A DNA stretch of 40,520 bases, from NCBI GenBank assembly GCA_964526635.1, contig CAZGLR010000014.1, positions 1 through 40,520 on the forward strand, given 5' to 3'. The DNA is from an uncultured Ignavibacteriales bacterium. Its GTDB lineage: Bacteria > Zixibacteria > MSB-5A5 > GN15 > JAAZOE01. The translations under genes were made by a program, and so were the position numbers. Numbering within the stretch: position 1 is the first letter of the stretch; each line of letters begins with the position of its first letter. Positions 484 through 40,296 of the stretch are shown in pieces. The notes under the pieces were generated by a model. The model was not told where the DNA came from, did no database searches, and saw only the letters and a list, made by a program, of their open reading frames with translations.

Positions 484-512
484 TTGACCAGCCGCAACCG
501 ATACATATATTA
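484..512 (+). promoter_or_regulatory. Putative sigma70-type promoter (TTGACC, 16-17 nt spacer, TATATT/ATATTA) with overlapping imperfect palindrome cgata-N7-tatcg (possible ArsR operator)
   Basis: Read directly: ttgacc at 484-489, AT-rich hexamer at 506-512, about 25 nt before the ATG at 537; palindrome cgatacatatattatcg spans the -10 region. Confidence 0.35.
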
Positions 513-536
513 TCGTAGTTGCGAAAGGATGCAAGT

Positions 537-908
537 ATGGCACTCGATGATCCCCGAATCTTTGAACTCCATGCCGGGTTCTGTAAAGTCATCGCCAATT
601 CCAAACGGCTCATGATTGTCTCCCTCCTGGCCGATGGCGAAAAGAGCGTGGGGGAATTGGCTGAGGCCCTGGATTCGCCGCTGGCCAATGTCAGCCAGCA
701 TCTGCGCATCCTCAGGGATCACCACATCGTGACTATCAGGAAAATGGCCCAGACGGTGTACTATCGTCTCACCGACCGGCGGCTCCCCGAAGCCTGTCAG
801 CTTATCCGTACGATTTTGTTGGAAAGCCTGACTCAGCAGGTGGAACTGGCCTGCGACGAAAGCTCGGAACGACAGGTACACCGGATATTTACGAAAAAGG
901 GAAGATGA
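537..908 (+). CDS. ArsR/SmtB-family metalloregulatory transcriptional repressor
   Basis: HTH motif SVGELAEALDSPLANVSQHLRILRD typical of the ArsR family; about 120 aa; ATG at 537 preceded by aaaggat (the track's TTG at 519 is less likely); stop overlaps the next gene's ATG (ATGA at 905-908). Confidence 0.8.
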   Translation: MALDDPRIFELHAGFCKVIANSKRLMIVSLLADGEKSVGELAEALDSPLANVSQHLRILRDHHIVTIRKMAQTVYYRLTDRRLPEACQLIRTILLESLTQQVELACDESSERQVHRIFTKKGR

Positions 909-3460
909 GTATGAATAGAGTTATCGGGTTTCGGATGTTCGCACTCGGGTGTCTGCTGACACTGTTTTTTGCGGCCACACTGCAGGGAGCACACCCACCG
1001 ATCATGCTGCTCGATGCCGAGGGGAATGAGATCAATCCCATCACCGGGGATAACGCCGATCAACCGTTCTCGACGGCGATGACCTGCGGCATTTGTCACG
1101 ATTATGAGACCATCACCGGCGGGTATCATTTTCAAATGGGCTGGGATGTGGTCAGTGATACATTCGGCGTTGTCGATGCCAAACCCTGGCAGATATCCAA
1201 TGGTATGATGGGTAAATGGTGTCCATTATACTTCAGGCAACTGGCCAAAAAAGAAAACGAATCGGCGGACGCTATCGACCTGACCGTCTATGACTTTGTA
1301 GGCTTCTCTGACGGCAATGGCTCGCCATATCCCTGCGGCGCCTGCCATCCCGGCGGCGGCGGTCTGGAGTATGACCGCGAGGGTAACCGGTATGATGAAA
1401 TGATGGCCGAAAATCCGGAACTGGCCGAGACTCTCGATGGTGACTACTATCAAAGCAAGTGGCACGAAAGCGGGGTTGTCGAGGCCGATTGCTTTGTTTG
1501 CCATCTCGATGGCTATGCCTTTGAGGAGCGGACTTATCAACTGGAACAGGGCAACTACAAATGGGCCGTAGTCTCCGGTACCGGCTATGGCATCGTGAGC
1601 GGTTCGGTCAAGCGCGGCCGGGAGCCATCGGTTGTCTATAACACGAAGTTTTTCAATGCCGATGGCACTATCAAACTCGACGTCAGTTGGCCCCCGCCTG
1701 ACAAAAACTGCGTGTTCTGCCATGGTCAGTCCGACAGCCGCAAGCGCGGTTTTTCCTGGAATGATATTCATAACTCCGATGTTCACAACAGCCAGGGTAT
1801 CTCCTGTGCCGCCTGTCATCCCTCCGGACTCGATCATCAATTTGCCAAAGGCAATGCCCGGGCGCTCAATGTGGCCGACCATCTCGACGATACCATGATG
1901 GATTGCAAGGAATGCCATGCCGATGGCTACCTCGGTGCAACCGTCCCGGATCATCATTCAGTCAGGCCGTCGCATCTGGAACGTATCGCTTGTGAAGCCT
2001 GTCATATTCCATCGCTGAACCTGTCGGCTGTTCGAGGCGTGGAATCGGCGACCGGAGAACTCGAATTCACATTCCGACCTGATTCGGTCGATGATTTCGG
2101 TGAATACGGTACCTGGTATCCTGATTATGAACGCTGGATAGAAAAGAAGATTTATCCTTTTAATACGCTGGTGATCAACTGGTGGGGAAACTACCAGGAT
2201 GGTGTTATTTATCCCCTGTTCCTGCGGGAGCAGGAAGCCATCTGGCCGTTGTATGCAGACCGGGTGACCGATGATAACGACGATGGCGACCCCGAAGTCA
2301 ATCGTGGCGAGGAGATTCTGGCCGGAATAGAAGCAACCGCCAGAGGGCTGGACGGCAACCAGCGGTTCAGCGAAATTCACCCGGTTTATGTCAAGGCGGG
2401 TACCGCCTGGCATCTGAATGAAGACGGCGTCCTCGATACGCTGCCGTTTGACGAAGTTACCTGTATTATGTATTCGATCAGTCATAATGTGGCCCCGGCG
2501 CGGTTTGCGCTGGGTGTCAACGGCTGCGGTGATTGCCATGACCATGAGGCGCATTTCTTCAAGGGCCGGCGCGTGCTCGATCTGTATGACTCCACCGGTG
2601 CCGCGGTTACGCGCGGCAATGGCTACTTCTTTGGCTGCAACCCGTTTTCATTTACAATCAATACTTTCCACCAGCAGATTCTCAGCCCGATCGTGAGTAT
2701 ACTCATTATCATTGTCATCTTCCTGGTGATATTGCATTATCACAGTTACGGCCCCAAGCATATACCGTTCATCCCCAATTCCGGTGAAGTGAAGCGGTTT
2801 TCACTGTATGAACGGGGGCTGCACCTGTTTCGCCTGATCTCATTTGTCGTGCTGAGTGTAACCGGTTTGATTATGGCTTTCAATCTCGTTTTGTGGCAGC
2901 AATTGCTGTTTAAATCACCACAGCAGATGCTTGAGTTCCATATCGGTTTCGGCATTGTGTTTTTGATTACCACGATACTGGGAATTGTGTCCTGGTACCG
3001 CGATGCCATCTTCAAGCCGCATGACAGGGAATGGATGAAAAAATTCGGCGGATATCTCGGCCACAAAGGTGAATTCACTTCGGGGCGCTTTAACGCCGGG
3101 CAGAAAATGTTTTACTGGTTTACTTCGATTTCGGGAATTCTGATTTCGGTGACAGGAGTTATTCTGACCTTTAAACCCATTACATCGCTGGCGACAGTCT
3201 GCATTACCTCGACTATCCATAACATCCTCGCTTTCATTATGATTGCCGGTGTTCTGGCCCATGCCTATCTCGGGACGGTGGCCAATCCGGGTACCTGGCG
3301 TGTGCTGGTCGACGGCTTCGTGACACGAATCTGGGCGGAACACCATCATCCGCAATGGTATCGGGAAAAGATGGCCCGCGGCGAAGTGGAAACCTGGGAT
3401 GAGGCTGAAGGTGACCAGAACAATGATCCTGATCCGGAAGCCGGCAAGGCTAATTCGTAA
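905..3460 (+). CDS. Octaheme c-type cytochrome fused to a C-terminal diheme cytochrome b (FdnI/HydC-like) membrane domain; CbcL-like quinone-interacting respiratory cytochrome
   Basis: N-terminal signal peptide; eight CxxCH motifs (CGICH, CGACH, CFVCH, CVFCH, CAACH, CKECH, CEACH, CGDCH); then 4-5 TM helices with conserved His (LHLFRL, EFHIGFG, IHNILAFIMIAGVLAHAYLG) as in the formate-dehydrogenase gamma / Ni-Fe hydrogenase cytochrome b family; 4-nt overlap with arsR. Confidence 0.8.
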   Translation: MSMNRVIGFRMFALGCLLTLFFAATLQGAHPPIMLLDAEGNEINPITGDNADQPFSTAMTCGICHDYETITGGYHFQMGWDVVSDTFGVVDAKPWQISNGMMGKWCPLYFRQLAKKENESADAIDLTVYDFVGFSDGNGSPYPCGACHPGGGGLEYDREGNRYDEMMAENPELAETLDGDYYQSKWHESGVVEADCFVCHLDGYAFEERTYQLEQGNYKWAVVSGTGYGIVSGSVKRGREPSVVYNTKFFNADGTIKLDVSWPPPDKNCVFCHGQSDSRKRGFSWNDIHNSDVHNSQGISCAACHPSGLDHQFAKGNARALNVADHLDDTMMDCKECHADGYLGATVPDHHSVRPSHLERIACEACHIPSLNLSAVRGVESATGELEFTFRPDSVDDFGEYGTWYPDYERWIEKKIYPFNTLVINWWGNYQDGVIYPLFLREQEAIWPLYADRVTDDNDDGDPEVNRGEEILAGIEATARGLDGNQRFSEIHPVYVKAGTAWHLNEDGVLDTLPFDEVTCIMYSISHNVAPARFALGVNGCGDCHDHEAHFFKGRRVLDLYDSTGAAVTRGNGYFFGCNPFSFTINTFHQQILSPIVSILIIIVIFLVILHYHSYGPKHIPFIPNSGEVKRFSLYERGLHLFRLISFVVLSVTGLIMAFNLVLWQQLLFKSPQQMLEFHIGFGIVFLITTILGIVSWYRDAIFKPHDREWMKKFGGYLGHKGEFTSGRFNAGQKMFYWFTSISGILISVTGVILTFKPITSLATVCITSTIHNILAFIMIAGVLAHAYLGTVANPGTWRVLVDGFVTRIWAEHHHPQWYREKMARGEVETWDEAEGDQNNDPDPEAGKANS

Positions 3461-3486
3461 GACCTGCTAAACCTGAGTCATGATAG

Positions 3487-3513
3487 GGGAGCGGCAGCGC
3501 CGCTCCCTTTATT
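3487..3513 (+). terminator. Rho-independent terminator after the cytochrome gene
   Basis: GC hairpin gggagcggc-agc-gccgctccc followed by tttatt. Confidence 0.55.
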
Positions 3514-3620
3514 ACATCGTAAATTCGTACTCCGGGACGGAACAATCATAATCATGGACTGGTTACACTGGTAAACTGATACATCTACCGTCAACAACGA
3601 TTGTAATAAGGGGTAACAAA

Positions 3621-3815
3621 TTGTCTGAGAAAAAATCCATATTCGGTAATGGTGTGCTGAAAAACAGCGCCCGTGAATTCTTTGTCTTTGTCGATGACAA
3701 GGGCCAATCCTGGATCTGCGATAAGGAAGCAGTGGGGCAGATTGATCCCACCAAGCCCTTTGAGGGCCAGAATATCGAACGCTGCGAAGTGATGCCATTC
3801 GATCACGGTGGCTGA
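3621..3815 (+). CDS. Small hypothetical protein (64 aa, TTG start)
   Basis: ORF with several Cys/His (WICDKE, ERCEVMPFDHGG); no recognisable family; in the gap between the terminator and the thioredoxin gene. Confidence 0.3.
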   Translation: MSEKKSIFGNGVLKNSAREFFVFVDDKGQSWICDKEAVGQIDPTKPFEGQNIERCEVMPFDHGG

Positions 3816-3909
3816 TCCTCGTGCGTGTGGTGGAATCAAAATTCTGAAATCCAATCCCCGGTAAGTCCGGGGATTGGATTCCATAACAATACTTACGTGG
3901 ACGTAAAGT

Positions 3910-4260
3910 ATGGTTTCAATGACGCGACAGGATTTTCTCGATAAGGTCTTTAACTACGAAAAGTCAAGCGCATGGACGTATCAGGGAAGTGCCCCCTGTG
4001 TGATAGACTTTCATGATGAAAGCTGTCCACCGTGCAAACATCTCGAGCCGATACTGGGTAAACTATCCGAAGAGTATGACGGCCGAGTTATTTTTTATAA
4101 AGTTGATATAAAGGCAGAGAAAGACCTCGCTGAAGAAGTCGGCATCCAGAATTTGCCGACCCTGGTTTTCTGCCCCCTCGATGATAAACCGATTGTGATG
4201 CAGGGTGCGGCCCCCCGAGAAAAAGTCGTGGCGGCGATCGAAAAAGAGCTTCTGGCCTGA
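3910..4260 (+). CDS. Thioredoxin-family protein
   Basis: CPPC active site in thioredoxin-fold context (SCPPCKHLEPILGKLSEEY...NLPTLVF); no signal peptide. Confidence 0.8.
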   Translation: MVSMTRQDFLDKVFNYEKSSAWTYQGSAPCVIDFHDESCPPCKHLEPILGKLSEEYDGRVIFYKVDIKAEKDLAEEVGIQNLPTLVFCPLDDKPIVMQGAAPREKVVAAIEKELLA

Positions 4261-8400: not shown

Positions 8401-8570
8401 TGTTACACCGGTTTCCGGATGACCGGATATCCGCCATCATCGATACTTGACAAAATCGTCGATGTATGTACTTTGTAAGTAGACGAACGACTTCTTTGAT
8501 TTACCCCTTTTTATAACGATACTGTTTCCGCGCTCCGCGCCGGAACATGCCTTTGTCCCGGGATGATACT

Positions 8571-9749
8571 ATGAAAGTCCTGATCTGCCTCCTGCTTGTC
8601 AGTGTTCTGGCAACACTTTTTACCGACTCATTATCCGCTGCCACCAAAGTCTATTTCGAAACCTTCGAGCGGCAGATCACCACCGATACGGCCGACCAGT
8701 TTGATCCATCGATTTGCGGCACGATAATCGTCTATTCCGATCGCCGCAATAGCGATGCCGATGTGTACATCTATGATCTGGCGGCTGATTCGGAGATTCA
8801 GGTGACCAGCGGTGGCGGTGATCAACTCCTGACCGATGTCTGGGACAATCACGTTGTCTATACCGACTATGGCAGCGGCAATGCCGAGATATTCCTGCGG
8901 TATCCTTCCGGATCATATGCCTCCATTCTTTCCCATCCGGCCAACCAGCGCCGTCCGGCTATCAACGACGGCGTCATTGTTTTCGAGGACGATCGCAATG
9001 GCAATTACGATTGTTACTGGTATATCAGCACGACATTGAGCGGATGGGTGACGCTTGATCTTTCTCATCAAAGAAAACCAGCCGTAGCCGATTCGATTAT
9101 CGTTTATGAGGATTTCCGCAATGGCAATTCTGATGTCGGCATGTATCGTGTCGGGTGGTCGACCGAGATGCTGCTGACAGATGATCCCGCTCAGGATGTC
9201 GATCCCGATATCAATGACGGTATAATTGCGTTTTGCTCCAATCGCGCAGATATTGGAGATGTTTTCTACTTCGATATCGCAGCTGATTCTTTGGTACAGG
9301 TAACGGCCGGTGACGGCAACTATGAACGGAACCCATCGGTTTCAGGCGATTTCATTACTTATGAAAGCTATGCCGCCGGCGATGCCGATATCTGGCTGTA
9401 TTCGATTCTACTCGATTCTTCGGTACGCATAACGTGTGATTCTGCCGAGCAATACCTGCATGATCATTCCGGCAATACGATTGTCTACACGGATAATCGC
9501 AACGGCAATCTCGATATCTACGCCATGACTTTCCTTTTCGAAGAAGTCGTGTGTGGTGATGCCAATGGTGATGATATCGTCAATGTCGGTGACGCTATCT
9601 TTCTCATCAATTATATCTTCAAAGCCGGGCCCGAACCGCTGCCGAAAATAGCCGGCGATGCCTCCTGTGATGAAGAACTCAATGTCGGCGATGCCATCTA
9701 TATCATCAATTATGTCTTCAACGGTGGTCCGGAGCCCTGTTGTCCATAG
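8571..9749 (+). CDS. Secreted TolB-like beta-propeller (PD40-repeat-like) protein with C-terminal type-I dockerin-like module
   Basis: Signal peptide MKVLICLLLVSVLATLFTDSLSA (ATG at 8571 preferred over 8547); repeated motifs (IYIYDLAADSEIQVTSGG, FYFDIAADSLVQVTAGDG); C-terminal CGDANGDDIVNVGDAIFLINYIFKAGPEP...GDASCDEELNVGDAIYIINYVFNGGPEPCCP is two dockerin EF-hand-like repeats. Confidence 0.75.
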   Translation: MKVLICLLLVSVLATLFTDSLSAATKVYFETFERQITTDTADQFDPSICGTIIVYSDRRNSDADVYIYDLAADSEIQVTSGGGDQLLTDVWDNHVVYTDYGSGNAEIFLRYPSGSYASILSHPANQRRPAINDGVIVFEDDRNGNYDCYWYISTTLSGWVTLDLSHQRKPAVADSIIVYEDFRNGNSDVGMYRVGWSTEMLLTDDPAQDVDPDINDGIIAFCSNRADIGDVFYFDIAADSLVQVTAGDGNYERNPSVSGDFITYESYAAGDADIWLYSILLDSSVRITCDSAEQYLHDHSGNTIVYTDNRNGNLDIYAMTFLFEEVVCGDANGDDIVNVGDAIFLINYIFKAGPEPLPKIAGDASCDEELNVGDAIYIINYVFNGGPEPCCP

Positions 9750-19439: not shown

Positions 19440-22400
19440 ATGAGGCTTTTGACCGGCCTGGTTCTCATTCTGGGTCTTTTTCTGCTGGTCGCTTCGGCTG
19501 TGGCCGAAGAAAAGATCTACGGATCTAACACACTCCGACAAAACCCGGAAATTACGATTTACCAGGAAAATGACCGGGGTATTCCAACTTACATCGAGGG
19601 AGCACTCAGCGACGGGAGTACCGCCAAGGGCGGCGAGGTTGCCGAGACCTTCGCGTTTCTCGAAACTCACCGCGGGGCTTTCAAGATGGCCTCCCCGAGC
19701 GAGGAGATGAAGGTCGAACGGATGGATATCGACGAGTTCGATATGCGCCATGTTAGGCTCTCCCAAACGTATCAGGACCTGCCGGTTATCGGCGGTGAGC
19801 TTATCTCTCATTTCACTGCCGACGGCCGCCTGAAGACGATCAACGGCTACTATTATCATGATATATCCCTTGATCCGGTACCGCTGGTGCCATCAGAAGA
19901 GGCCATACGGATCGCCTCAGAGGATCTGGAAGTGTTTTTTGGCAAGGGCGAGCCAGATCAGCCGGAACTGGTGGTATTTCCCTGGGATGATACCTACTAC
20001 CTGGCCTGGCGGTTGTTTCTTTACTCCGATACGCCGATGGGCCGCTGGGAGTATTTCGTCGATGCCAAAACCGGCGATGTTATCTTCAATGCCAACCGGA
20101 TTATGAATGAAAATGATATCGGTACCGGATATGGTGTCATGGGAGATTTTCGTGACAGTATTGAGACCCATTACAGCGGCTCAACCTATCAGATGATTGA
20201 CCGGACCCGGCGGCTGAATAATAATCCGCATGGCCACGATGGTCAGATGCCGTCGACCAATGATATCCGGACGAACATCGCCGGGTCGAGTCTGCCGGGA
20301 TCGCTGGCTTCCGACCCGGATAATCTCTGGGATCAAAGCACTCAGGCGCCGGCTGTCGACGGTCAGGTGTATACCGGCCTGGTCTATGATTATCTGCTGC
20401 ATCACCTGGGACGCAATGGCTACAACAATGCCGGGGCGTCGATGTTGACGATTGTCAACTATTCCGGCGACGGCGACAACAATGCCTACTGGGATGGCTC
20501 CCGAATTGTGATCTGGAGCTGGTCGTCGGGGTGGCGGTCACTGGCTGGCTGTCCTGATGTGATTGCCCATGAATGGGGTCATGCCGTCACCGAATATACC
20601 TCCGGACTGGTGTATCAGAAAGAACCGGGTGCGTTGAACGAATCCTTCTCCGATATGATTGGAGCGGCATTTGAGTTCTATCATCCGGAACTGGATGTCG
20701 GTGATTGGGATATGGGCGAGAATGGCCGTACGACGGGTATCGGCTTCCGTTCCATGGATAACCCGCACGAAGCCAGCGATCCCGATTATTATGGTACCTC
20801 CGATCCCTACTGGATTGATGTGGAAGGCTGCTCACCATCGTATTACAACGATTACTGTGGTGTTCACACCAACAGCGGTGTCGGCAATAAATGGTTCTTC
20901 CTGCTCTCCGATGGCGGTTCGCATCATGGTGTCACTGTCACCGGTATCGGCGTACAAAATGCTATGCTGGTAGCCTATCGCGCCAACGCCATGTACTGGA
21001 ACTCCAACACCGATTATCATCAGGGAGCACTGGGGACGATTTCGGCGGCTAATGATCTCGATACCACCGGGACTTGGGCCCAGCAGGTTTCGGCGGCCTG
21101 GAATGCTGTCGGGGTTGCGACACCCGGACCGTCGCTGGCCTTTTCGTATCCCGATGGACTTCCCGAAACTCTGTTACCCGGAGAAGCGGCTACATTTAGA
21201 GTCATACCATCGGGGACTCTGGGTGGCACGCCCGTGCCGAATTCCGGGTATATTTATCTGTCGCTCGATGGCGGACCGTTTGTCAAGACCTCGATGCTGG
21301 ATCTGTTCTCGCATTATTCGGCGATGATTCCCGGAGCATCATGCGGCAGCGTGTATCGATACTACGTCAGTATCGATGAATCATCCAGCGGCACCGTCTA
21401 CGATCCTGATCCCTCCGCACCGATCGTCGCGTTTGTCGCCGATTCGGTTGTTTCGGTCTTCGATGACAGCTTCCAGACCGACCAGGGTTGGACAGTCACC
21501 GGCAATGCTGTCGAAGGTATGTGGCAACGCGCGATTCCATCCAATGGCGGATTCCGCGGCGATCCGGCCAGTGATTTCGACGGCTCTGGATATTGTTTTG
21601 TCACGGATAACGGCGTTGATCATGATATCGACGGCGGGACGACCTACCTGACATCGCCGACCTTCGATATGTCGGCAGGCGATGGTGTCATTAAGTATGC
21701 CCGCTGGTATTCCAATGACTTCGGGGCTTCGCCGTTTGCCGATGAAATGTATGTCTATGTTTCCAACAACGACGGTTCGAGCTGGACTCTGGTCGAAACC
21801 GTCGGCCCGGTCGAAGATGCCTCCGGTGGCTGGGTGGAAAAATCCTTTTTGGTGAGTGATTTTGTATCGCCGAGTGCTGCGGTGCGAATTCGTTTCGAGG
21901 CCGGTGATCTCGGTGATGGCTCGGTTGTCGAGGCGGCGATCGATGCCGTCAGTGTTACTGTCTTCGGTTGCGATCAGGCGCCGCCTGAACTCGATATCGT
22001 GACCGAGACAATCGATGACTGGACATCGGGCGTGGCCTTCAATCAGGTACTCGAATCCAGCGGCGGAACCGGTACGCATGTCTGGTCGGATATGTATAGT
22101 GAGCTGTCCGGAACCGGCTTAAGCCTGTCGGCCGGCGGTGAGCTTGCCGGCATGCCGGGTGATACCGGTCAGATTTCCTTTACTGCGTTGGTCGTTGATG
22201 ATGAAAGCGACAGCGCCATGCAGGTATATGATTTCATCATTAATCCGGCCGTCAGTATCACAACCGAAACGCTGGCGTCCTGTACCACCAACGTTGCCAT
22301 CACCCGGCAGTTAATTACCACCGGCGGTACGGGAACTATCATCTGGTCAGATCTTAACAATGATCTCGATGGCACCGGGCTGGCCCTGTCGACAAGCGGC

Positions 22401-33992: not shown

Positions 33993-34139
33993 CATTGCAT
34001 TACCGCAATTGTAGTTTCTTGAAATATTGCAAATATGCAATATTTTTAGTGCGTTCATGCGAAGTCGATTAATCGATGAACATTTTAATCAATTGTACCA
34101 CAATAATATATTGTTTTCTTGTTTGTGTTTTGCTTATGT

Positions 34140-34155
34140 CGGCAAGCCTTTTGCT
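34140..34155 (+). promoter_or_regulatory. Putative sigma-54 (-24/-12) promoter cGGCAAgccttTTGCT
   Basis: GG and GC correctly spaced versus consensus TGGCAC-N5-TTGC; immediately upstream of the NifX-like operon and downstream of a sigma-54 activator gene; leader to ATG 34172 is unusually short. Confidence 0.4.
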
Positions 34156-34171
34156 TTTATGTTACAACGTT

Positions 34172-34582
34172 ATGGAAAGGGTTGCAATTCCGCTATATAA
34201 TGGACGGGTATCGCCGGTCTTCGATACCGCCACACAGGTTCTGGTCGCTGCCTGTGGCGCTCGCCAGTATTACATCGAAAAGACACTGAGTCTCAAGACA
34301 TCAGATCCGGCCCAACGGTGCCGTTGTCTTGCCGAAAACGGCATCACGGTCATTCTTTGCGGTGGGATATCCCGGCGATTTCTGGCCTATTTACGGAAGT
34401 ACAATATTGTTGTTCATTCTTTTTTAAGCGGGCCGATACCGCAGATCCTGAGAACGTATGTTCGTGATTTTGAACATCTCCAGGATCATCGCCAAATCAG
34501 GCAACGTCCACAGCATCATCGCCGGCGACGAACGGGACATCGGATGCAGCCGCCATCTCAGAAAAAAATGGAGTCGAAATGA
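34172..34582 (+). CDS. NifX/NifB-C-like (dinitrogenase FeMo-cofactor-binding family) domain protein 1
   Basis: MERVAIPLYNGRVSPVFDTATQVLV...ENGITVILCGGIS matches the Nitro_FeMo-Co family pattern; Arg/His-rich tail may indicate an uncertain 3-prime end or a frameshift. Confidence 0.55.
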   Translation: MERVAIPLYNGRVSPVFDTATQVLVAACGARQYYIEKTLSLKTSDPAQRCRCLAENGITVILCGGISRRFLAYLRKYNIVVHSFLSGPIPQILRTYVRDFEHLQDHRQIRQRPQHHRRRRTGHRMQPPSQKKMESK

Positions 34583-34944
34583 AAATTGCTGTTTCAGCTC
34601 AACAGGATTCATTGTCCAGTCCGGTCGATCCGCGGTTTGGCCGGGCCCCGTTTTTCATCATTTATGATACCGACACCGATTCGCACGAAATTATCTCGAA
34701 TGCGGAAAATGTAACGGCCGGGCAGGGTGCCGGCATCCAGGCGGTCCAATTGGTGGCGGGTCATAATGTTGAAATGGTCATTTCCGGCCGCGTCGGTCCC
34801 AAGGCATTCGTGGCGCTTGGCACCGCCGGCATCAGGGTTGCCTCATGGCAGCAGGGCACGGTTTCCGAGGCTATCGATCTGGCCCGGGATAACCGACTTG
34901 AATTTATCAACCAGGCCAATGCCGCGGCTCATTGGCAGCAATAA
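34579..34944 (+). CDS. NifX/NifB-C-like domain protein 2
   Basis: MKIAVSAQQDSLSSPVDPRFGRAPFFIIYDTDT...QLVAGHNVEMVISGRVGPKA family pattern; RBS tggag; 4-nt overlap with the upstream ORF. Confidence 0.7.
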   Translation: MKIAVSAQQDSLSSPVDPRFGRAPFFIIYDTDTDSHEIISNAENVTAGQGAGIQAVQLVAGHNVEMVISGRVGPKAFVALGTAGIRVASWQQGTVSEAIDLARDNRLEFINQANAAAHWQQ

Positions 34945-34969
34945 GCTATATACGGGAGGTGAGTACCAC

Positions 34970-35251
34970 GTGACACCTGACAGCACCAGAGGCGGCCGAC
35001 GATTTCGACTGCGCGGGAATAAGGCGGTGCGCAACAGCGGACTGACTCTTCTGGCTACGTCAATTGTATCGGCCATTACCTACGATCTCAAACAGCCGGA
35101 CAGTATCGTACGCGGCCTGATTGGATCCGGGTATCGCGCGCTTAAATCGCTGGCTGCCCCTCGCCGGGGTCAGGATGTTTCTGATCTGGTGGACGTTACC
35201 GACGTTGCCCCGGCTGAAATTATTGAAGATGAATCGAAGCGAAAGGAGTAA
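34970..35251 (+). CDS. Small hypothetical protein (GTG start, about 93 aa)
   Basis: Fills a 310-nt gap inside the operon; GGGAGGTGA RBS 9 nt before GTG 34970; acidic C-terminus; no family recognised. Confidence 0.3.
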   Translation: MTPDSTRGGRRFRLRGNKAVRNSGLTLLATSIVSAITYDLKQPDSIVRGLIGSGYRALKSLAAPRRGQDVSDLVDVTDVAPAEIIEDESKRKE

Positions 35252-35255
35252 CACC

Positions 35256-35615
35256 ATGCCAGGAGGAGATCGTACCGGACCATTGGGTGCCGGACCATTA
35301 ACCGGTCGAGGCGCCGGCTTTTGCCGTGGCGCCGGGCAACCGGGTTTTTATACTCGCGGTGGTCGCGGCCGGGGTGTCAACCGTCCTTTCGGCGGTCGTG
35401 GTGGTCGCCGGCGCGGCGATTTCTACTATCAACCTGATGCCGTCGGATGGACCCGCGGCAGTGGCGAACCGATTATGGCGGCGGCAGACGCGGCGTATCA
35501 GGACGAAAATACCGGTCTGCAGCAGCAAATTGACAATTTGACCAAAACGGTCGAAGCACTCGGCAGCCGGGTAAAGCAATTGCTGCGGAAGGACACCAAA
35601 GATGATGCAAAGTAA
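35256..35615 (+). CDS. DUF5320-like Gly/Arg-rich protein with C-terminal coiled coil
   Basis: AAAGGAG RBS; N-terminus MPGGDRTGPLGAGPLTGRGAGFCRGAGQPGFYTRGGRGRG resembles the MPRGDGTGPxGxGPxTGRG signature of DUF5320 proteins that accompany MinD-ferredoxin/NifX-like clusters; C-terminal helix QQQIDNLTKTVEALGSRVKQLL. Confidence 0.6.
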   Translation: MPGGDRTGPLGAGPLTGRGAGFCRGAGQPGFYTRGGRGRGVNRPFGGRGGRRRGDFYYQPDAVGWTRGSGEPIMAAADAAYQDENTGLQQQIDNLTKTVEALGSRVKQLLRKDTKDDAK

Positions 35616-35853
35616 AGGACGCGGCGGCGGCCAGGGACAGGGCGGTGGTCGCGGTCAGGGACAGGGCGGTGGTCGCGGCCAGGGCCAGGGACGTGGTCAG
35701 GGTCAGGGACGCGGCGGCGGGCCGAATATGCAGCGCGGACCCGGGGGTGAGTGTATCTGCAATAACTGCGGTGCGATCGTCCCGCATGAACCCGGTGTTC
35801 CCTGCATGGATCAGACCTGCCCGAAATGCGGCGGGACGATGGTAAGGAAGTAA
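35602..35853 (+). CDS. Gly/Arg/Gln-rich low-complexity protein with C-terminal 4-Cys zinc ribbon
   Basis: Overlaps the upstream stop by 14 nt; GRGQGQGGGRGQGQGGGRGQGQGRGQGQGRGGG then CICNNCGAIVPHEPGVPCMDQTCPKCGG. Confidence 0.55.
   Translation: MMQSKGRGGGQGQGGGRGQGQGGGRGQGQGRGQGQGRGGGPNMQRGPGGECICNNCGAIVPHEPGVPCMDQTCPKCGGTMVRK
35632..35720 (+). repeat. Imperfect tandem DNA repeat (about 24-nt unit ggacagggcggtggtcgcggtcag, about 3.5 copies) encoding (GRGQGQGG)n
   Basis: Read directly from the sequence. Confidence 0.8.
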
Positions 35854-35867
35854 CGCGGAACGACTGC

Positions 35868-36716
35868 ATGAGAATAGCCTTTGCCAGTGGAAAGGGTGGT
35901 ACCGGTAAGACAACGCTGGCCACCAATTTGACAGCATGGCTCGCTGATCAGGGCGAGACAGTTTGCTATGCCGACTGCGATGTGGAAGAACCTAACGGGC
36001 ATATTTTTCTCAAACCGGAGATTGAGGACACCATTGACGTGACTGTCCCGATTCCGGTAATAGACGCAGAGGCCTGTGATGCCTGCGGCGAATGTGTGAC
36101 GCATTGTCAGTTCAATGCCATAGCTCTTTTGGGCAAAACTGTCGCAGTTTTCCCAACACTCTGCCACAGTTGCGGGGTGTGCAGTGCCATCTGTCCTCAG
36201 CAGGCGATTACTGAATCATCCCGGTCGCTTGGCACGATTACTATCGGTCGCGGCCGTGGCGCTGGTGTGTATACCGGGCGTCTGACGGTTGGCGAAGCGC
36301 TGGCCCCGCCGGTCAGCAGAGCGCTGAAAAGCCTGTTACCCGATGACGGCACCATAATTATCGATGCTCCGCCGGGCACGTCCTGTCCCGTGATTGAAGC
36401 GGTAACCGGATGTGACTATCTGGTATTGGTAACCGAACCGACACCGTGCGGCCTCCATGATCTCTGTCTGGCCCTTGAGATGGCGGGAAAGCTCCATCTG
36501 CCCTGTGGTGTCGTGATAAATAATGACGATGGCGACCCCGATACGGAAGTCGCGATCGCCTCCAGGGGCGCAGAAATTCTACAGACTATCGCATATCAGC
36601 CGCATCTGGCCCGAAAGTATTCCGAGGGACACATGTTGATCGATGCTGATCCGGGCTATGCCTGGAAGATGAAACATCTCTATGGCAAAATAACACGGGC
36701 GGTGGCGCATGGCTGA
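35868..36716 (+). CDS. MinD/ParA-superfamily P-loop ATPase with inserted 2x[4Fe-4S] ferredoxin domain (COG1149-type)
   Basis: Deviant Walker A SGKGGTGKTT; CDACGECVTHCQFNAI and CHSCGVCSAICPQQAI CxxCxxCxxxCP clusters. Confidence 0.85.
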   Translation: MRIAFASGKGGTGKTTLATNLTAWLADQGETVCYADCDVEEPNGHIFLKPEIEDTIDVTVPIPVIDAEACDACGECVTHCQFNAIALLGKTVAVFPTLCHSCGVCSAICPQQAITESSRSLGTITIGRGRGAGVYTGRLTVGEALAPPVSRALKSLLPDDGTIIIDAPPGTSCPVIEAVTGCDYLVLVTEPTPCGLHDLCLALEMAGKLHLPCGVVINNDDGDPDTEVAIASRGAEILQTIAYQPHLARKYSEGHMLIDADPGYAWKMKHLYGKITRAVAHG

Positions 36717-37635
36717 GATGGTCTTTATCAGTGGCAAAGGGGGGACCGGGAAGACCACTGTGTGTGCCAGTCTGGGGCATCTTCCTGAATCCTGTGTGCT
36801 GACAGACTGCGATGTGGATGCAGCCAATTTGCATCTGCTGGTCAACTACAACACCAAAGAAACACATGATTTTTCCACCAGTGCGGTGGCGTCGATCGAT
36901 CAGACTGCCTGCGATTCCTGCGGGCTGTGTTTTGATTTGTGTCGTTTTTCGGCCATCAGCCGTACCTATAAATCCGATGTACCGGGAAAATATGAATACC
37001 GCGTGGAGCCGCTTGCCTGTGAGGGCTGCGGTATGTGCCGTTACATGTGCCCGCAAAAGGCGGTTGAACTGAAACCGGTACGCAGCGGCCAGTGGTTTAT
37101 CTCCGAAACCGAGCGCGGGCCGTTTTATCATGGCCGCCTTGATATCGCTCAGTCCAATTCCGGCCGCCTGGTTTCTCTGCTGCGCAAAAAGGCACAGGAA
37201 GCCGCGCGCGTCTCGAACATCCCGCTGCTGCTCACCGATGGTCCTCCGGGGATTGGCTGCCCCGTAATTGCATCAATAACCGGCGCCGACCTGGTCGTGG
37301 CTGTTTCGGAACCATCGCGCTCGGCCTTTCATGATCTGCAACGGATTGTTGAGTTGACGACATTTTTCTCGCTCCCGGCGGTCGTGTGTATTAACAAATA
37401 CGATATCAATCCAGAAATCTCCCGTCACATCGAGGAATTCGCGCAGGAACATCATCTGCCGGTTGTAGCCAGGTTGCGCGTTGACCGGGCAGTGATCGAC
37501 GCCCAGCGAACCGGGCGACCGTATCTCGATGTTGCGATCGACTATAACCGTCGCGAATTGATTAAAATGTGGAATACAGTAATTGATCGATTGCCTGACC
37601 TCAATGGCACCAGGCAACGGCGTTTTGCCGTCTGA
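36709..37635 (+). CDS. Second MinD/ParA-type ATPase with inserted 2x[4Fe-4S] ferredoxin domain
   Basis: SGKGGTGKTT; CDSCGLCFDLCRFSAI and CEGCGMCRYMCPQKAV; 8-nt overlap with the upstream paralog. Confidence 0.85.
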   Translation: MAEMVFISGKGGTGKTTVCASLGHLPESCVLTDCDVDAANLHLLVNYNTKETHDFSTSAVASIDQTACDSCGLCFDLCRFSAISRTYKSDVPGKYEYRVEPLACEGCGMCRYMCPQKAVELKPVRSGQWFISETERGPFYHGRLDIAQSNSGRLVSLLRKKAQEAARVSNIPLLLTDGPPGIGCPVIASITGADLVVAVSEPSRSAFHDLQRIVELTTFFSLPAVVCINKYDINPEISRHIEEFAQEHHLPVVARLRVDRAVIDAQRTGRPYLDVAIDYNRRELIKMWNTVIDRLPDLNGTRQRRFAV

Positions 37636-38048: not shown

Positions 38049-38133
38049 ATGCCGCCGGTTGATGAACAAATAGTGACACTTACAACCTGTGCCGGTCTTT
38101 ATGGTCGGCGTAAGGAATAGATGGAAAGCAACT

Positions 38134-39588
38134 ATGCGAACAGATCCGATCTCTGAAGAACAACGTAAGACGGCTTTTGCGGCCACCAAAAAGCCGGATG
38201 TGATGGAGCGGCAAAAGCTGGCGGTGCGATATCATGTCGAGGATTACGATATTGCCGACCGGCCACGGAAATTTCTGGAGGCCTTTGCCGCAATTTTGCG
38301 GCATACCAATTATCGTTTTGCTCTGGATCATTTCGCGCGGGTCTCGGCAAAGTGCGCCCGATGTTCGGTCCAGTGCCCGGTGTATCAGGCGACCGATGAT
38401 GTCACCGACATCCCCTGCCATCGATCTGAATTGCTGCTGAAGGTCTATAAACGGCACTTTACCCTGGGCGGTATGTTCCAGGGCCGCCTGACCGGCAGTG
38501 GCCACCTGACCGACAGCGATATCGAAGAGATGGCCGACTCGTTCTGGAATTGCACCGCCTGCCGGCGCTGCACGCTGGAATGCCCGGTCGGCATCGATCA
38601 TGCCCTGATTACCCATCTTGGCCGTTTCATCCTCAGCGAAATTGGTATTGCCCCCCGGGCGCTGGTCGTCAGTACCCGTGAACAGCTCGAAGGTAAAACC
38701 GGTAACACTTCGGCTATACCGCTGCCGGCCCTGGTCGATACCCTCGAATTTCTTGAAGAGGATATGAAAGAGGAAAAGGGCGTCGATATTAAATTCCCGC
38801 TCGATGTCGATGGCAGCGAATACCTCTTTATGCCGGCGGTCTCCGATTTTTTGATGGAGGCCGAGACCCTGATGGGTATCGCAGCTGTCTTTGCCGCCAC
38901 CGGCGGTTCCTGGACAATCAGCACGGAATACTTCGATGCAATCAACTACGGCCTCTTTTACAATGATCGCATTCTTGAACGGGTCATTCGCAAGCTGTAT
39001 GCCGAATCCGAGCGGCTGCATACCAGGGCTATACTGATCGGTGAATGCGGCCATGCTTCGCGTACGGCCAAATATTTCGTGCCGGTGCATTGCGGTGGCG
39101 ATAAAGCCAGGCCCGTGTTGAATATCATGGAATACACATATCGCATGCTGAAAGAAGGCAAACTCAAACTCGATCCCAACGTGATCACCGAACGGGTGAC
39201 ATATCACGATCCTTGCAACATCGCCCGTCAGGGCTGGGTCGTTGACCAGCCGCGTGAGATTATCCGGGCTTTCTGCAAAGACTTTGTTGAGATGACCCCG
39301 CGCCGTACCGAAAACATCTGTTGCGGTGGCGGTGGCGGATCGGTATCGATCGATGAAATCCGTCCCTATCGCACGACGATCGGCGGCAAGGCCAAGGCCG
39401 ACCAAATTCGTAACACCGGCGCCAGGTACGTTATTGCGCCATGCGCCAACTGCAAAAAGCAATTGCGGGAACTGGTCGAAGATCAGCGAATCGACTGCGA
39501 AGTCATCGGGCTGCATGATCTGATCTACAAAGCAATTATTTTCGATACTGTCCCGCAGCCATCACCCGAAACCGTGGAGAAAGGATAA
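38134..39588 (+). CDS. HdrD/DsrK/GlpC-like Fe-S oxidoreductase with CCG domain
   Basis: Cys clusters CARCSVQCP and CTACRRCTLECP; CCG-domain signature HDPCNIARQG...ICCGGGGGS...APCANCKKQL; start at ATG 38134 preferred. Confidence 0.75.
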   Translation: MRTDPISEEQRKTAFAATKKPDVMERQKLAVRYHVEDYDIADRPRKFLEAFAAILRHTNYRFALDHFARVSAKCARCSVQCPVYQATDDVTDIPCHRSELLLKVYKRHFTLGGMFQGRLTGSGHLTDSDIEEMADSFWNCTACRRCTLECPVGIDHALITHLGRFILSEIGIAPRALVVSTREQLEGKTGNTSAIPLPALVDTLEFLEEDMKEEKGVDIKFPLDVDGSEYLFMPAVSDFLMEAETLMGIAAVFAATGGSWTISTEYFDAINYGLFYNDRILERVIRKLYAESERLHTRAILIGECGHASRTAKYFVPVHCGGDKARPVLNIMEYTYRMLKEGKLKLDPNVITERVTYHDPCNIARQGWVVDQPREIIRAFCKDFVEMTPRRTENICCGGGGGSVSIDEIRPYRTTIGGKAKADQIRNTGARYVIAPCANCKKQLRELVEDQRIDCEVIGLHDLIYKAIIFDTVPQPSPETVEKG

Positions 39589-39591
39589 CCA

Positions 39592-40296
39592 GTGCAGGAG
39601 ATACTCGATTTTTGCCGCGGCCCGCTGTTCCGATTTTCCTTTTTACTTATGGTCTTCGGACTGCTCCGCATCCTGGTCCTTGATATCTGGCAGGCGTTGA
39701 TCGCATGGCGCCGGGCCGGGGACAAGCGACTTGCGTGGAAGTCGGCGACAGTCAATACTTTACACTGGCTGTTTCCGATTAAAAAGACGTTTACCCGAAA
39801 ACCGGTCTATAGCCTGGTTTCTATATTGTTTCACGTCGGCTTGATCACTGTCCCGATTTTTCTGGCCGCTCATATTACACTCTGGCACGAGAGTACCGGT
39901 ATCAGATGGTGGGCCATGCCGCACAGCCTGGCTGACTGGCTGACGATCTCCACGATTGTCTTTGCCCTGACCTTGTTTGCCTGGCGGGTGCTCAGCCGTG
40001 ATGCCCGCTTTCTCAGCCGCAGCCAGGACTATCTTTGGCCGATTTTGCTGAGTATCCCGTTTATTACCGGCTATGCCTGCGTCAATACCGCTTTGAGTGC
40101 GCGAGCGTATGAATTCAGTATGCTGCTGCATGTGCTGTCGGCGAACCTGATTTTCGTCATGATACCGTTTTCGAAAATCGCCCATTGTGTCATCCAGCCG
40201 TTGTCGCAATTCATGCTGGCCCTGGCCTGGAAATTCCCGGCCCGCATCGATGATAAAATTGCCACGACTCTCAAGAAGAAAGGAGCGCCGGTATGA
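39592..40296 (+). CDS. NarI/DsrM/HdrE-like integral membrane cytochrome b
   Basis: 5 TM helices with conserved His (LFHVGLITVPIFLAAHITLWH, LLHVLSANLIFVMIPFSKIAH), as in nitrate-reductase gamma-like subunits that pair with HdrD/DsrK. Confidence 0.65.
   Translation: MQEILDFCRGPLFRFSFLLMVFGLLRILVLDIWQALIAWRRAGDKRLAWKSATVNTLHWLFPIKKTFTRKPVYSLVSILFHVGLITVPIFLAAHITLWHESTGIRWWAMPHSLADWLTISTIVFALTLFAWRVLSRDARFLSRSQDYLWPILLSIPFITGYACVNTALSARAYEFSMLLHVLSANLIFVMIPFSKIAHCVIQPLSQFMLALAWKFPARIDDKIATTLKKKGAPV

What the first reader, a model, noticed from the sequence alone, without database searches (positions are those of the whole stretch)
905..3460. Very large CbcL-like cytochrome: periplasmic octaheme c domain fused to a diheme b membrane anchor, translationally coupled to an ArsR regulator
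There are eight CxxCH motifs in about 560 periplasmic residues, plus an FdnI/HydC-like cytochrome b C-terminus. In Geobacter this architecture (CbcL) is a low-potential inner-membrane quinol:periplasm electron conduit used in extracellular respiration. Direct ATGA coupling to an ArsR/SmtB metal-responsive repressor, which normally controls metal or metalloid resistance, suggests metal- or metalloid-responsive control of an electron-export conduit. That pairing is not a described arrangement.
Basis: partly seen in the sequence, partly recalled or inferred. Interest (0 to 1): 0.65.

Follow-up and report, generated by a model that had tools for sequence, protein, structure and literature searches.

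The report
Octahaem-c/dihaem-b membrane cytochrome with ArsR
The gene is a real, intact member of a widespread but uncharacterised family of inner-membrane cytochromes that probably link the quinone pool to periplasmic electron carriers; it resembles Geobacter CbcL only in layout, and its ArsR-type neighbour looks like a thiol/sulfur-redox sensor, not a metal sensor.

Summary
ORF 905/911-3460 encodes 851 aa: a signal peptide, eight CxxCH motifs, one linker helix and a four-helix FdnI-type cytochrome b. All four haem-ligating His and the FdnI quinone-site motif are present. More than 300 full-length homologues (55-69% identity) rule out a frameshift artefact.

"CbcL-like" is right for architecture and probable role, but wrong for family membership. 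The c-domain is distantly related to tetrathionate-reductase-type octahaems (hhalign probability 90%). The b-domain scores as bona fide FDH-gamma. True CbcL/MtoC-type 19-21-haem c/b fusions are separate genes that sit directly upstream of this family in about 12 related loci, often with OmcK-like decahaem and MtrB/PioB-like genes. That synteny supports an extracellular-electron-transfer role.

The ArsR gene is tightly co-operonic: a promoter with a palindrome over the -10, a 4-nt overlap or 2-nt gap, and a terminator after the cytochrome gene. The pairing occurs in none of 38 other loci. This ArsR lacks the canonical metal sites. It belongs to a clade with two conserved Cys (C16, C87), usually found upstream of TusA-FlpD-HdrA-like operons.

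Verdict: a new variant of a known kind, of moderate-to-low interest.

The parts
484..513 (+). sigma-70-like promoter (TTGACC, 16-18 nt spacer, TATATT/TATTAT) upstream of arsR
   Evidence: 10 of 12 matches. This is a consensus scan only and is not proof of function.
494..522 (.). candidate operator: nested imperfect palindrome GCAAC-CGATA-N7-TATCG-ta-GTTGC overlapping the -10
   Evidence: Sequence read. The perfect CGATA-N7-TATCG occurs only at 499-515 in the 40.5-kb window. Binding by the ArsR is an inference.
537..908 (+). ArsR/SmtB-family winged-helix repressor, 123 aa, of a clade with two conserved Cys (C16, C87)
   Evidence: PF01022 and NF033788 at 78 bits against a 55-bit cut-off. Clade alignment A2. 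In 80 metagenome loci C16 is kept in 80 of 80 and C87 in 78 of 80. SmtB H106 is replaced by R82 and SqrR C41 by S29.
905..3460 (+). octahaem-c / dihaem-b fusion cytochrome gene (851 aa from ATG 905; 849 aa from ATG 911)
905..991 (+). signal peptide (aa 1-29), ending ...ATLQGA|HPP
   Evidence: Hydrophobic segment at aa 5-29. H30 immediately after it is invariant. The cleavage site is inferred.
992..2674 (+). periplasmic octahaem domain (aa 30-590): haems 1-7 at aa 61-367, a beta-rich insert of about 160 aa (aa 370-530) carrying a DDNxDGxPEVN loop, and haem 8 at aa 541
   Evidence: hhalign to a TIGR04315 OTR-family octahaem gives probability 90% and E 1.7e-6, with haems 2-7 co-linear. There is a weak match to the NrfA haem 4-5 region.
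2678..2740 (+). linker transmembrane helix (aa 592-612) that carries the chain from the periplasm to the cytoplasm
   Evidence: Highest hydropathy peak, 3.34. The topology is inferred from the cytoplasmic N-terminus of FdnI.
2786..3382 (+). FdnI-type cytochrome b domain (aa 628-826): 4 TM helices, b-haem ligands H640/H786 and H679/H772, and the quinone-site motif G-R-F-N730-A-G732-Q733-K
3485..3515 (+). intrinsic-terminator-like hairpin (about 11-bp GC-rich stem, then UUUAUU) that closes the two-gene operon
   Evidence: centroid hairpin, z -3.08, none of 200 shuffles folds as well. The simple scanner did not flag it.

Best explanation
arsR and the cytochrome gene form a two-gene, probably autoregulated operon.

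The cytochrome. It is an inner-membrane quinol/quinone:multihaem-cytochrome oxidoreductase. The signal peptide exports an OTR-like octahaem domain. One linker helix returns the chain to the cytoplasm. A four-helix FdnI-type cytochrome b then carries two b haems stacked across the membrane, with a menaquinone site on the cytoplasmic face next to the H786-ligated haem. Electrons therefore cross the membrane between the quinone site and the eight periplasmic c haems. This is an electrogenic half-loop. Quinol oxidation with outward electron flow consumes proton-motive force, which helps reduce low-potential acceptors. The reverse direction would generate it.

Likely role. In relatives the gene lies in operons with an OmcK-like decahaem, an MtrB/PioB-like (GSU2204-family) barrel protein, a CbcL/MtoC-type 19-21-haem c/b fusion and sometimes an ImcH-like protein. 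The most likely role is therefore one of several alternative entry or exit points between the quinone pool and a periplasmic/outer-membrane electron conduit.

The regulator. The ArsR probably represses the operon by binding the palindrome over the -10. It is probably released by modification of the C16/C87 thiol pair (disulfide, persulfide or polysulfide), not by a metal.

Shown: anatomy, residue conservation, homologies and synteny. Inferred: topology, direction of electron flow, partners, operator binding and effector.
For: Anatomy and conserved ligands. FdnI-type b-domain above the curated cut-off, confirmed by fold. The 'GKYNAGQKMMFW' quinone-site loop of FdnI aligns with the invariant 'GRFNAGQKMFYW'; the assignment of Asn110, Gly112, Gln113 and His169 to the HQNO site is from my memory of Jormakka et al. 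2002. Family breadth.

Synteny. The GSU2203-family decahaem (343 bits against a 325-bit cut-off) and the GSU2204-family protein (526 bits against 350) are. The GSU2204 family is described as an MtrB/PioB-type barrel in PMC13188914. Counts across the 38 related loci are: a decahaem hit in 16 loci, the barrel protein in 15, and a full-length 19-21-haem c/b fusion in about 12. Same-strand gaps of 36-41 nt occur in L003, L004, L007 and L038. An Hmc/Dsr-like trio at window 38089-40520 lies beside family members in 5 loci.

Operon signals.

Regulator. The Cys pair is conserved. Canonical metal ligands are missing. The dominant context is TusA-FlpD-HdrA-like. Two-Cys ArsR-type sulfane-sulfur sensors that control respiratory or sulfur genes are a precedent (PMC12423496).
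Against: The window has no other multihaem gene and no porin-cytochrome partner. About half of the related loci, mostly Acidobacteriota and Methylomirabilota, also lack them, so an EET role is not universal for the family. The c-domain descends from a catalytic octahaem lineage. Only seven invariant non-motif His are available as distal ligands for eight haems, so one haem could be open-coordinated. The AF2 model is poor over the haem regions (pLDDT below 50), and no structural homologue was found for the c-domain. The two Cys of the ArsR are not at the SqrR/BigR positions, so the sensing chemistry is conjecture. No shared operator motif could be established in promoters of ArsR homologues.
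Confidence: 0.55

Rival explanations
1. It is a membrane-anchored enzyme, not a wire. An OTR-like octahaem reductase is fused to its quinol dehydrogenase and reduces a soluble periplasmic substrate such as tetrathionate or polysulfide, nitrite or hydroxylamine, or a metalloid oxyanion. It is induced through the thiol-sensing ArsR when that substrate, or the sulfur stress it causes, is present.
For: hhalign links haems 2-7 to a TIGR04315 tetrathionate-reductase-family octahaem. There are weak TIGR04315 and NrfA matches. An ArsR 62% identical to this one lies next to a split analogue, an OTR-family octahaem plus a PhsC-like cytochrome b. Only seven invariant candidate distal His serve eight haems. 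Haem 2, the active-site haem position in OTR (from memory of Mowat et al. 2004), is the one lost in 7-haem relatives. The window locus has no conduit partners.
Against: In the hhalign register, which is of low confidence there, the 'GKG' Lys of the OTR-family template (not verified to be the haem-ligating Lys) falls at A123 of the window protein, and no Lys is conserved at that position. All eight motifs are the standard CxxCH. About 15 related loci place the gene inside porin-cytochrome operons. OTR-like folds are also used by non-catalytic or terminal EET cytochromes.
Confidence: 0.25
2. The machine is the same but runs inward. It acts as a quinone reductase that takes electrons from extracellular or periplasmic low-potential donors (reduced humics, cathodes, Fe(0)/Fe(II), sulfide) and conserves energy as an Fdn-N-type redox half-loop.
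For: FdnI itself works in this direction, and the quinone site is conserved on the cytoplasmic side. CbcL/MtoC-type relatives occur in both Fe(III) reducers and Fe(II) oxidisers, and direction cannot be read from sequence (PMC6295460).
Against: With this topology, reducing quinone from a donor of higher potential than the quinone would have to work against the membrane potential, so only low-potential donors fit. No donor-specific genes are nearby.
Confidence: 0.12
3. One reading: a CbcL orthologue under metal- or metalloid-responsive ArsR control.
For: The overall c-plus-b layout is the same. The regulator matches the NF033788 'metalloregulator ArsR/SmtB' model. C16 together with C87 of the other protomer could in principle form a thiolate metal or metalloid site.
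Against: The haem number, haem spacing and TM count differ from CbcL. Only the b-domain shows remote similarity to a CbcL-type protein. The 2018 BLAST survey of CbcL homologues did not list a homologue that carries a 2015-style NCBI locus tag (P0058, AMS18_13420). The alpha3N and alpha5 ligands are absent. No ars or other metal-resistance genes were seen among the window ORFs I scanned. The clade context is TusA-FlpD-HdrA-like.
Confidence: 0.05
4. It is what the public annotation says: a formate dehydrogenase gamma subunit.
For: TIGR01583 scores above its cut-off. Several sources name homologues this way.
Against: The match covers only aa 629-823. No FdnG- or FdnH-like genes are adjacent in the window or in related loci. 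The octahaem domain occupies the place of the catalytic subunits.
Confidence: 0.02

Closest known systems
Geobacter sulfurreducens CbcL (GSU0274) and the CbcL/MtrH/MtoC family
   Same: Both have a periplasmic multihaem c domain fused to an FdnI/HydC-like dihaem b membrane domain. Both are proposed to exchange electrons between the quinone pool and periplasmic cytochromes, and both occur in EET gene clusters.
   Different: CbcL is 619 aa with 9 haems at aa 34-257 and 6 TM helices. This protein has 8 haems spread over 480 aa, a 160-aa insert, an OTR-like c-domain and 5 TM helices. Its b-domain is about 20% identical to that of a CbcL-type 19-haem protein, which is encoded as a separate, adjacent gene in relatives. 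I could not retrieve the GSU0274 sequence for a direct comparison.
E. coli FdnI (formate dehydrogenase-N gamma subunit, PDB 1KQF chain C)
   Different: FdnI is a stand-alone subunit that docks FdnGH. Here an extra linker helix and a covalently fused octahaem domain replace those partners.
Octahaem tetrathionate reductase family (TIGR04315 / PF11783), often encoded with a PhsC-like cytochrome b
   Same: Haems 2-7 are co-linear (hhalign probability 90%). A similar 'H-x-V-A-P...C-x-x-C-H' context precedes haem 8. The split analogue (octahaem plus cytochrome b) lies next to an ArsR of the same clade.
   Different: Similarity is very remote: 29 bits to TIGR04315 against a 375-bit cut-off. No Lys is conserved where the template's 'GKG' Lys falls. 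The large insert is unique. The b partner is fused and of FdnI type, not PhsC type.
pcc-associated cytoplasmic-membrane c-cytochromes Dester_0351 / Theam_0871 (Shi et al. 2014, PMC4245776)
   Same: They are described as 8-haem c-cytochromes with similarity to formate-dehydrogenase cytochrome b, encoded in porin-cytochrome clusters, and less than 17% identical to MtrH/MtoC. That is the same description as this family.
   Different: They have six CX2CH plus two CX3-5CH motifs.
Two-Cys sulfane-sulfur-sensing ArsR regulators (SqrR, BigR, HlyU, SoxR, sHdrR)
   Same: They are the closest solved relatives (E about 1e-11). They have two conserved Cys, act as local repressors of sulfur or respiratory genes, and are linked to TusA/Hdr-type genes.
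   Different: The first canonical Cys (SqrR C41 / HlyU 'ILCML') is Ser29 here. The conserved pair is C16 (alpha1) and C87 (start of alpha5). The BigR model scores 59 bits against a 155-bit cut-off.

Membership tests
CbcL/MtrH/MtoC family | C-terminal HydC/FdnI-like dihaem cytochrome b domain with conserved His ligands | tested here: met
   PF01292 and TIGR01583 match, and four His align to the FdnI ligands.
CbcL/MtrH/MtoC family | Six transmembrane helices after the haem domain | tested here: not met
   A hydropathy scan finds five helices, one linker plus four of FdnI type, against six for CbcL. This was a hydropathy scan only, not a dedicated TM predictor.
CbcL/MtrH/MtoC family | Densely packed haem domain with the family's repeating CxxCH spacing (about 23-30, 28, 45, 28 residues) | tested here: not met
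   The spacings here are 83, 52, 73, 32, 33, 29 and 178 residues. The 19-haem neighbours reproduce the published pattern.
CbcL/MtrH/MtoC family | Detectable sequence homology over the whole protein to GSU0274, MtoC or MtrH (at least about 28% identity in the 2018 survey) | tested here: inconclusive
   Against a CbcL-type 19-haem proxy (L025), only the b-domain aligns: 20% identity, E 6e-7. GSU0274 itself was not available. The 2018 survey did not list P0058, a homologue of this protein.
Formate dehydrogenase gamma subunit (TIGR01583 equivalog) | Score above the curated cut-off | tested here: met
   143 bits against 115.85, but only for aa 629-823.
Formate dehydrogenase gamma subunit (TIGR01583 equivalog) | Encoded with, and serving, FdnG/FdnH-type catalytic subunits | tested here: not met
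   There are no such genes in the window or in the related loci.
Tetrathionate-reductase-family octahaem cytochromes (TIGR04315) | Score above the curated cut-off | tested here: not met
   29 bits against 375. Remote homology only, by hhalign at probability 90%.
Tetrathionate-reductase-family octahaem cytochromes (TIGR04315) | Lys-ligated active-site haem 2 | tested here: inconclusive
   No Lys is conserved at the position aligned to the 'GKG' Lys of the OTR-family template. The alignment is of low confidence there, and no haem-containing model was possible.
ArsR/SmtB metalloregulators with alpha3N or alpha5 sites | CxC-type Cys in alpha3 (alpha3N) or Asp/His/His/Glu ligands in alpha5 | tested here: not met
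   Alpha3 reads 'EKSVGEL'. SmtB H105/H106 align to R81/R82. The identity of the SmtB ligand residues is from memory.
SqrR/BigR/HlyU/SoxR/sHdrR persulfide-sensing ArsR subfamily | Two conserved Cys at the canonical alpha2 and alpha5 positions | tested here: not met
   SqrR C41 and the HlyU alpha2 Cys align to S29. A different pair, C16 and C87, is conserved instead. BigR scores 59 bits against a 155-bit cut-off.

The most novel reading that the evidence does not exclude
The window may show a previously unrecognised clade of two-Cys ArsR repressors (C16 in alpha1, C87 in alpha5), normally dedicated to TusA-FlpD-HdrA-like operons, recruited to control a quinone-linked periplasmic multihaem module. 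Sibling genomes do the same with three other kinds of module: HmcBC-like plus c3-type cytochrome, OTR plus PhsC-like b, and a CydA-like/multihaem fusion. On this reading the octahaem-FdnI fusion is an OTR-derived, proton-motive-force-coupled quinol:acceptor oxidoreductase whose expression is tied to cytoplasmic thiol or sulfane-sulfur status. That would couple extracellular or periplasmic electron flow to Hdr-type disulfide chemistry. The Hmc/Dsr-like CCG module at 38-40.5 kb, which co-localises with the family in 5 loci, would belong to the same system.
Probability: 0.2. Interest if true: 0.6.

Novelty: new variant of a known kind. Interest (0 to 1): 0.36.

Why it matters
Inner-membrane entry and exit points for extracellular electron transfer are known experimentally from only a handful of proteins: CymA, ImcH, CbcL and CbcBA. 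This family is abundant in uncultured Zixibacteria, Ignavibacteria, Acidobacteriota, Gemmatimonadota and Methylomirabilota.

It is routinely mis-annotated as "formate dehydrogenase subunit gamma", and it is not the CbcL that surveys would equate it with. Recognising it as a separate OTR-like octahaem/FdnI fusion, often encoded in tandem with a true CbcL/MtoC-type protein, improves metabolic inference from metagenomes. It also gives a defined candidate for testing how cells tune quinol oxidation to acceptor potential.

The regulator observation is a modest lead. It suggests thiol- or sulfur-redox control of such modules, not metal control.

Tried and rejected
(1) A direct comparison with GSU0274 was not possible, because no tool could fetch the sequence. 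I used the published architecture table and a CbcL-type 19-haem neighbour as a proxy.

(3) I looked for the ArsR, thioredoxin, orf64 and YciI-like neighbours in 34 related loci and found none.

(4) I looked for further operator copies. Seven single-mismatch matches to CGATA-N7-TATCG exist, but six lie inside ORFs. The seventh (26193) is intergenic, upstream of the gene at 23685-25751, and I found it unconvincing.

(5) I compared the promoters of four ArsR homologues for a shared palindrome. Only loose GCAA/TTGC themes appeared, so this is inconclusive.

(6) After 10 look-ups I thought the ArsR clade was strongly tied to cytochrome modules (4 of 10 contexts). The 80-locus metagenome sample corrected this: the dominant context is TusA-FlpD-HdrA-like and only 1 of 80 is multihaem.

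(7) I rejected the frameshift-artefact idea and the FDH-gamma annotation (no FdnGH genes).

(8) The organism could not be identified. The public record carries no name.
Full report
**Observation**

The ORF at 905..3460 (+) is real and encodes 851 aa. A script finds exactly eight CxxCH motifs, at aa 61, 144, 196, 269, 301, 334, 363 and 541, and no CX3-4CH motifs. It also finds an N-terminal hydrophobic signal (aa 5-29) and five later hydrophobic helices, at about aa 592-612, 640-662, 677-697, 735-757 and 765-790.

The C-terminal 200 residues match Pfam PF01292 (67 bits). They match NCBIfam TIGR01583, "formate dehydrogenase subunit gamma", at 143 bits, above its curated cut-off of 115.85. The only sequence-detectable solved relative is E. 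coli FdnI (1KQF chain C). It scores E 4.9e-19 with the single sequence and 1.2e-27 with a family profile.

**Not an artefact**

The word-indexed protein search returned 319 hits. The best 120 are nearly all 830-900 aa, cover 93-100% of the query and are 55-69% identical. In an alignment of 38 of them, all eight CxxCH motifs, the four b-haem His and the NAGQK loop are invariant.

**Is it CbcL?**

Published data give Geobacter CbcL (GSU0274) as 619 aa. It has nine CxxCH motifs between residues 34 and 257 and six TM helices (PMC6295460 Table S2; PMC9129911 abstract). The window protein has a quite different haem spacing (83, 52, 73, 32, 33, 29, 178), a 160-residue insert between haems 7 and 8, and five TM helices.

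Related loci also contain a separate gene that is the genuine CbcL/MtrH/MtoC type. It encodes 927-999 aa with 19-21 haems, six hydrophobic helices and a weak PF01292 match. Its haem spacing is almost identical to that of MAF27600.1, which the 2018 survey lists as a CbcL/MtrH/MtoC homologue. BLASTP between the window protein and one of these (L025) aligns only the b-domain, at 20% identity and E 6e-7.

The same survey used BLAST at E < 0.01, and it does not list P0058 (AMS18_13420), a 60%-identical homologue of the window protein from Gemmatimonas sp. SG8_17. I could not obtain the GSU0274 sequence itself, so the direct comparison remains undone. On present evidence, "CbcL-like" describes the architecture, not the family.

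**What the c-domain is**

Pfam and NCBIfam give only weak, local multihaem matches: Cytochrome_C7, MtrC/MtrF domains II/IV, MmcA, OTR and NrfB. A profile of the family against PDB sequences finds the haem 4-5 region of NrfA at E 3e-4.

The best evidence comes from hhalign. I compared the family profile with a bona fide tetrathionate-reductase-family octahaem (TIGR04315 at 577 bits against a 375-bit cut-off). The result was probability 90% and E 1.7e-6 over 208 columns, pairing haem motifs 2-7 in order. BLASTP also pairs the context of haem 8, ISHNVAP...CGDCH with LAHMVAP...CASCH. The periplasmic part is therefore a very divergent OTR-like octahaem module.

The exhaustive search of 1.84 billion representatives found 1946 relatives at E up to 0.001 and 176 at E up to 1e-30. 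Among the top 150, this module occurs in three settings: with the same FdnI-type anchor, with other multi-helix anchors, and with a single helix. Many of these relatives have seven haems because the haem-2 motif is lost.

Only seven non-motif His are invariant in the periplasmic part: H30, H75, H294, H311, H350, H357 and H527. One of the eight haems may therefore lack a His distal ligand. This leaves room for a catalytic or ligand-binding haem. The AF2 model is too poor over the haem regions to test it (pLDDT below 50).

**Genomic context of the family**

I examined 34 loci from species-representative genomes, all MAGs. They come from Zixibacteria, Ignavibacteria, GN15, Thermoanaerobaculia, Solibacteraceae, Bryobacteraceae, Methylomirabilota and a myxobacterial bin. 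Four further places came from look-ups of the closest homologues.

Counts across the 38 loci are as follows:
- 16 carry a hit to the OmcK-like decahaem query, and 15 the GSU2204-family CXXCH protein. The curated models score above their cut-offs: NF041028 at 343 bits against 325 and NF041027 at 526 bits against 350. The GSU2204 family is described as an MtrB/PioB-type outer-membrane barrel (PMC13188914). A small protein of about 145 aa accompanies them in 14 loci.
- About 12 have the 19-21-haem CbcL/MtoC-type gene directly upstream, on the same strand, with gaps of only tens of nucleotides.
- Three have an ImcH-like protein with a NapC/NirT-type N-terminus.
- Eleven have a TetR-family regulator.

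The closest relative (P0002, 68% identical) has the decahaem, the barrel protein and TetR next door. This is good guilt-by-association evidence that the family works with porin-cytochrome conduits. Shi et al. 2014 noted what sounds like the same kind of protein in Aquificae pcc clusters: 8 haems, similarity to FDH cytochrome b, and less than 17% identity to MtrH/MtoC. I could not verify homology to those proteins.

About half of the loci, mostly Acidobacteriota and Methylomirabilota, have no cytochrome neighbours. The window itself contains no other ORF with two or more CxxCH motifs.

**The ArsR link**

The 123-aa ORF from ATG 537 to TGA 906-908 is a clear ArsR/SmtB protein. Upstream lies a good sigma-70-like promoter at 484-513. 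It is overlapped by a nested palindrome, GCAAC-CGATA-N7-TATCG-ta-GTTGC, at 494-522. The perfect core occurs only once in the window.

The stop codon overlaps ATG 905. The public gene call uses ATG 911 instead (P0001 is 849 aa), and the purine-rich AAGGGAAG is better spaced for 911. The junction is therefore either a 4-nt overlap or a 2-nt gap. A GC-rich hairpin followed by UUUAUU lies 25 nt after the cytochrome stop (z -3.1). Together these signals define a two-gene operon.

The pairing is not a property of the cytochrome family. tblastn with the ArsR finds nothing in any of the 38 other loci.

**What kind of ArsR**

The closest solved relatives are HlyU, SmtB, SqrR, NolR and BigR, at E about 1e-11. 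The alignments give three results:
- Alpha3 reads EKSVGEL, with no Cys at the alpha3N position.
- SmtB H105/H106 align with R81/R82, so the alpha5 site is missing. The ligand identities are from memory.
- The first canonical Cys of the SqrR/BigR/HlyU persulfide sensors aligns with S29.

A different pair is conserved instead. C16 is nearly invariant and C87 is present in 26 of 29 clade members. In 80 metagenome loci at 43-63% identity, C16 is kept in 80 of 80 and C87 in 78 of 80.

The contexts of this clade are dominated by an ArsR-TusA-FlpD-HdrA-like operon. Among the 80 loci, many of them short, an HdrA-like gene appears in 45, FlpD in 32 and TusA in 26. A minority sit beside quinone-linked multihaem modules of different kinds:
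- HmcB-like, then HmcC/NrfD-like, then a c3-type cytochrome, in a Zixibacterium.
- An OTR-family octahaem plus a PhsC-like cytochrome b, in convergent orientation.
- PsiE, an unknown protein and a CydA-like/multihaem fusion.

Two-Cys ArsR repressors that sense sulfane sulfur and control sulfur-oxidation and respiratory genes are established (SoxR and sHdrR; PMC12423496). The most economical reading is that the window's regulator is a thiol-based redox or sulfur sensor recruited to this cytochrome gene. Metal or metalloid sensing has no positive support. No ars genes were seen among the window ORFs I scanned; ORFs below 150 aa outside the first 8 kb were not scanned.

**Mechanism**

Shown by sequence: an exported octahaem domain, a linker helix, and an FdnI-type dihaem b with an intact cytoplasmic-side quinone site.

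Inferred: electrons cross the membrane between the quinone site and the c haems. Quinol oxidation would then release protons to the cytoplasm and move charge outward. That consumes proton-motive force and favours reduction of low-potential acceptors. The reverse direction would conserve energy as in Fdn-N. Direction, partners and substrate cannot be read from sequence.

I put 0.55 on the quinone-pool-to-periplasmic-conduit reading with thiol-based ArsR control. I put 0.25 on a fused OTR-like reductase acting on a soluble substrate, and 0.12 on inward electron uptake.

**Verdict**

The gene belongs to a large, uncharacterised family that is often mis-annotated. The family is a distinct variant of the known multihaem-c/dihaem-b class of quinol oxidoreductases. 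The ArsR pairing is lineage-specific. It is of moderate-to-low interest, and its main value lies in annotation and in choosing candidates for experimental work on inner-membrane EET modules.

Noticed in passing
window 38089-40520: Three genes lie at the right end of the window: an HdrD-like CCG/Fer4 protein (499 aa), a 5-TM membrane protein (234 aa) and an HmcB/HybA-like 4Fe-4S protein cut off by the window end. The same trio, at 52-72% identity, lies next to the octahaem/FdnI family gene in L015, L018, L020, L024 and L030. In L020 and L024 it comes with an NrfD-plus-6-haem fusion. It looks like an Hmc/DsrMK-type transmembrane complex that may belong to the same respiratory system.
   Followed up: partly
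L003, L004, L007, L025, L030, L033, L034, L038 (e.g. L025:3994-9419): Two different multihaem-c/cytochrome-b fusions are encoded in tandem on one strand. A 19-21-haem, 6-TM protein of CbcL/MtoC type comes first, followed immediately by the 8-haem, 5-TM FdnI-type protein. Why a cell needs two quinone-interacting fusions in one operon is unexplained.
   Followed up: partly
L040, L042-L045 and most of L047-L126: There is a conserved operon ArsR(C16/C87)-TusA-FlpD-HdrA/GltD-like-HdrA-like. It is often preceded by CbiA/ParA-Fer4, Nitro_FeMo-Co-like or Thi4-like genes. I could not match this two-Cys ArsR clade to a characterised regulator.
   Followed up: partly
window 34076-37635: A Nitro_FeMo-Co-like protein and two CbiA/ParA-type P-loop proteins with inserted 4Fe-4S motifs. 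They resemble the genes found upstream of the ArsR-TusA-Hdr operon in L043 and L044.
   Followed up: no
window 3621-3815 and 3845-3883: A 64-aa ORF with a TTG start (MSEKKSIFGNGVLKNSAREFFVFVDDKGQSWICDK...) has no Pfam or NCBIfam match. It is followed by a perfect 17-bp-stem hairpin, then by a cytoplasmic CPPC thioredoxin gene at 3910-4260. Whether the small ORF is real is unknown.
   Followed up: no
window 2270-2302 (aa 456-466 of the cytochrome): A conserved DDNxDGxPEVN loop lies inside the beta-rich insert between haems 7 and 8. D456, D460 and E464 are invariant, and D457, G461 and N466 are conserved in at least 90% of the 38 homologues. It resembles a calcium-binding loop.
   Followed up: no
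P0004, P0009, P0016, P0029, P0042, P0051 and others: Public sources name members of this 850-aa octahaem family 'formate dehydrogenase subunit gamma'. TIGR01583 passes its cut-off on the C-terminal 200 residues alone. This is a systematic mis-annotation.
   Followed up: yes
window 8547-9749, 19440-22715, 23685-25751, 26535-28265: Four large secreted proteins carry C-terminal or internal dockerin type I domains. One is an M4 thermolysin-like peptidase of 1091 aa. This is unusual in a genome with no obvious cellulosome context.
   Followed up: no
L025:9499-11043, L026:4293-5825, L027 (near position 347): ImcH-like proteins, each with about six CxxCH motifs and a NapC/NirT-type N-terminus. In L025 and L026 they are encoded beside the octahaem/FdnI gene in Zixibacteria; in L027 the hit lies about 5.6 kb upstream. 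This parallels the ImcH/CbcL pair of Geobacter.
   Followed up: partly
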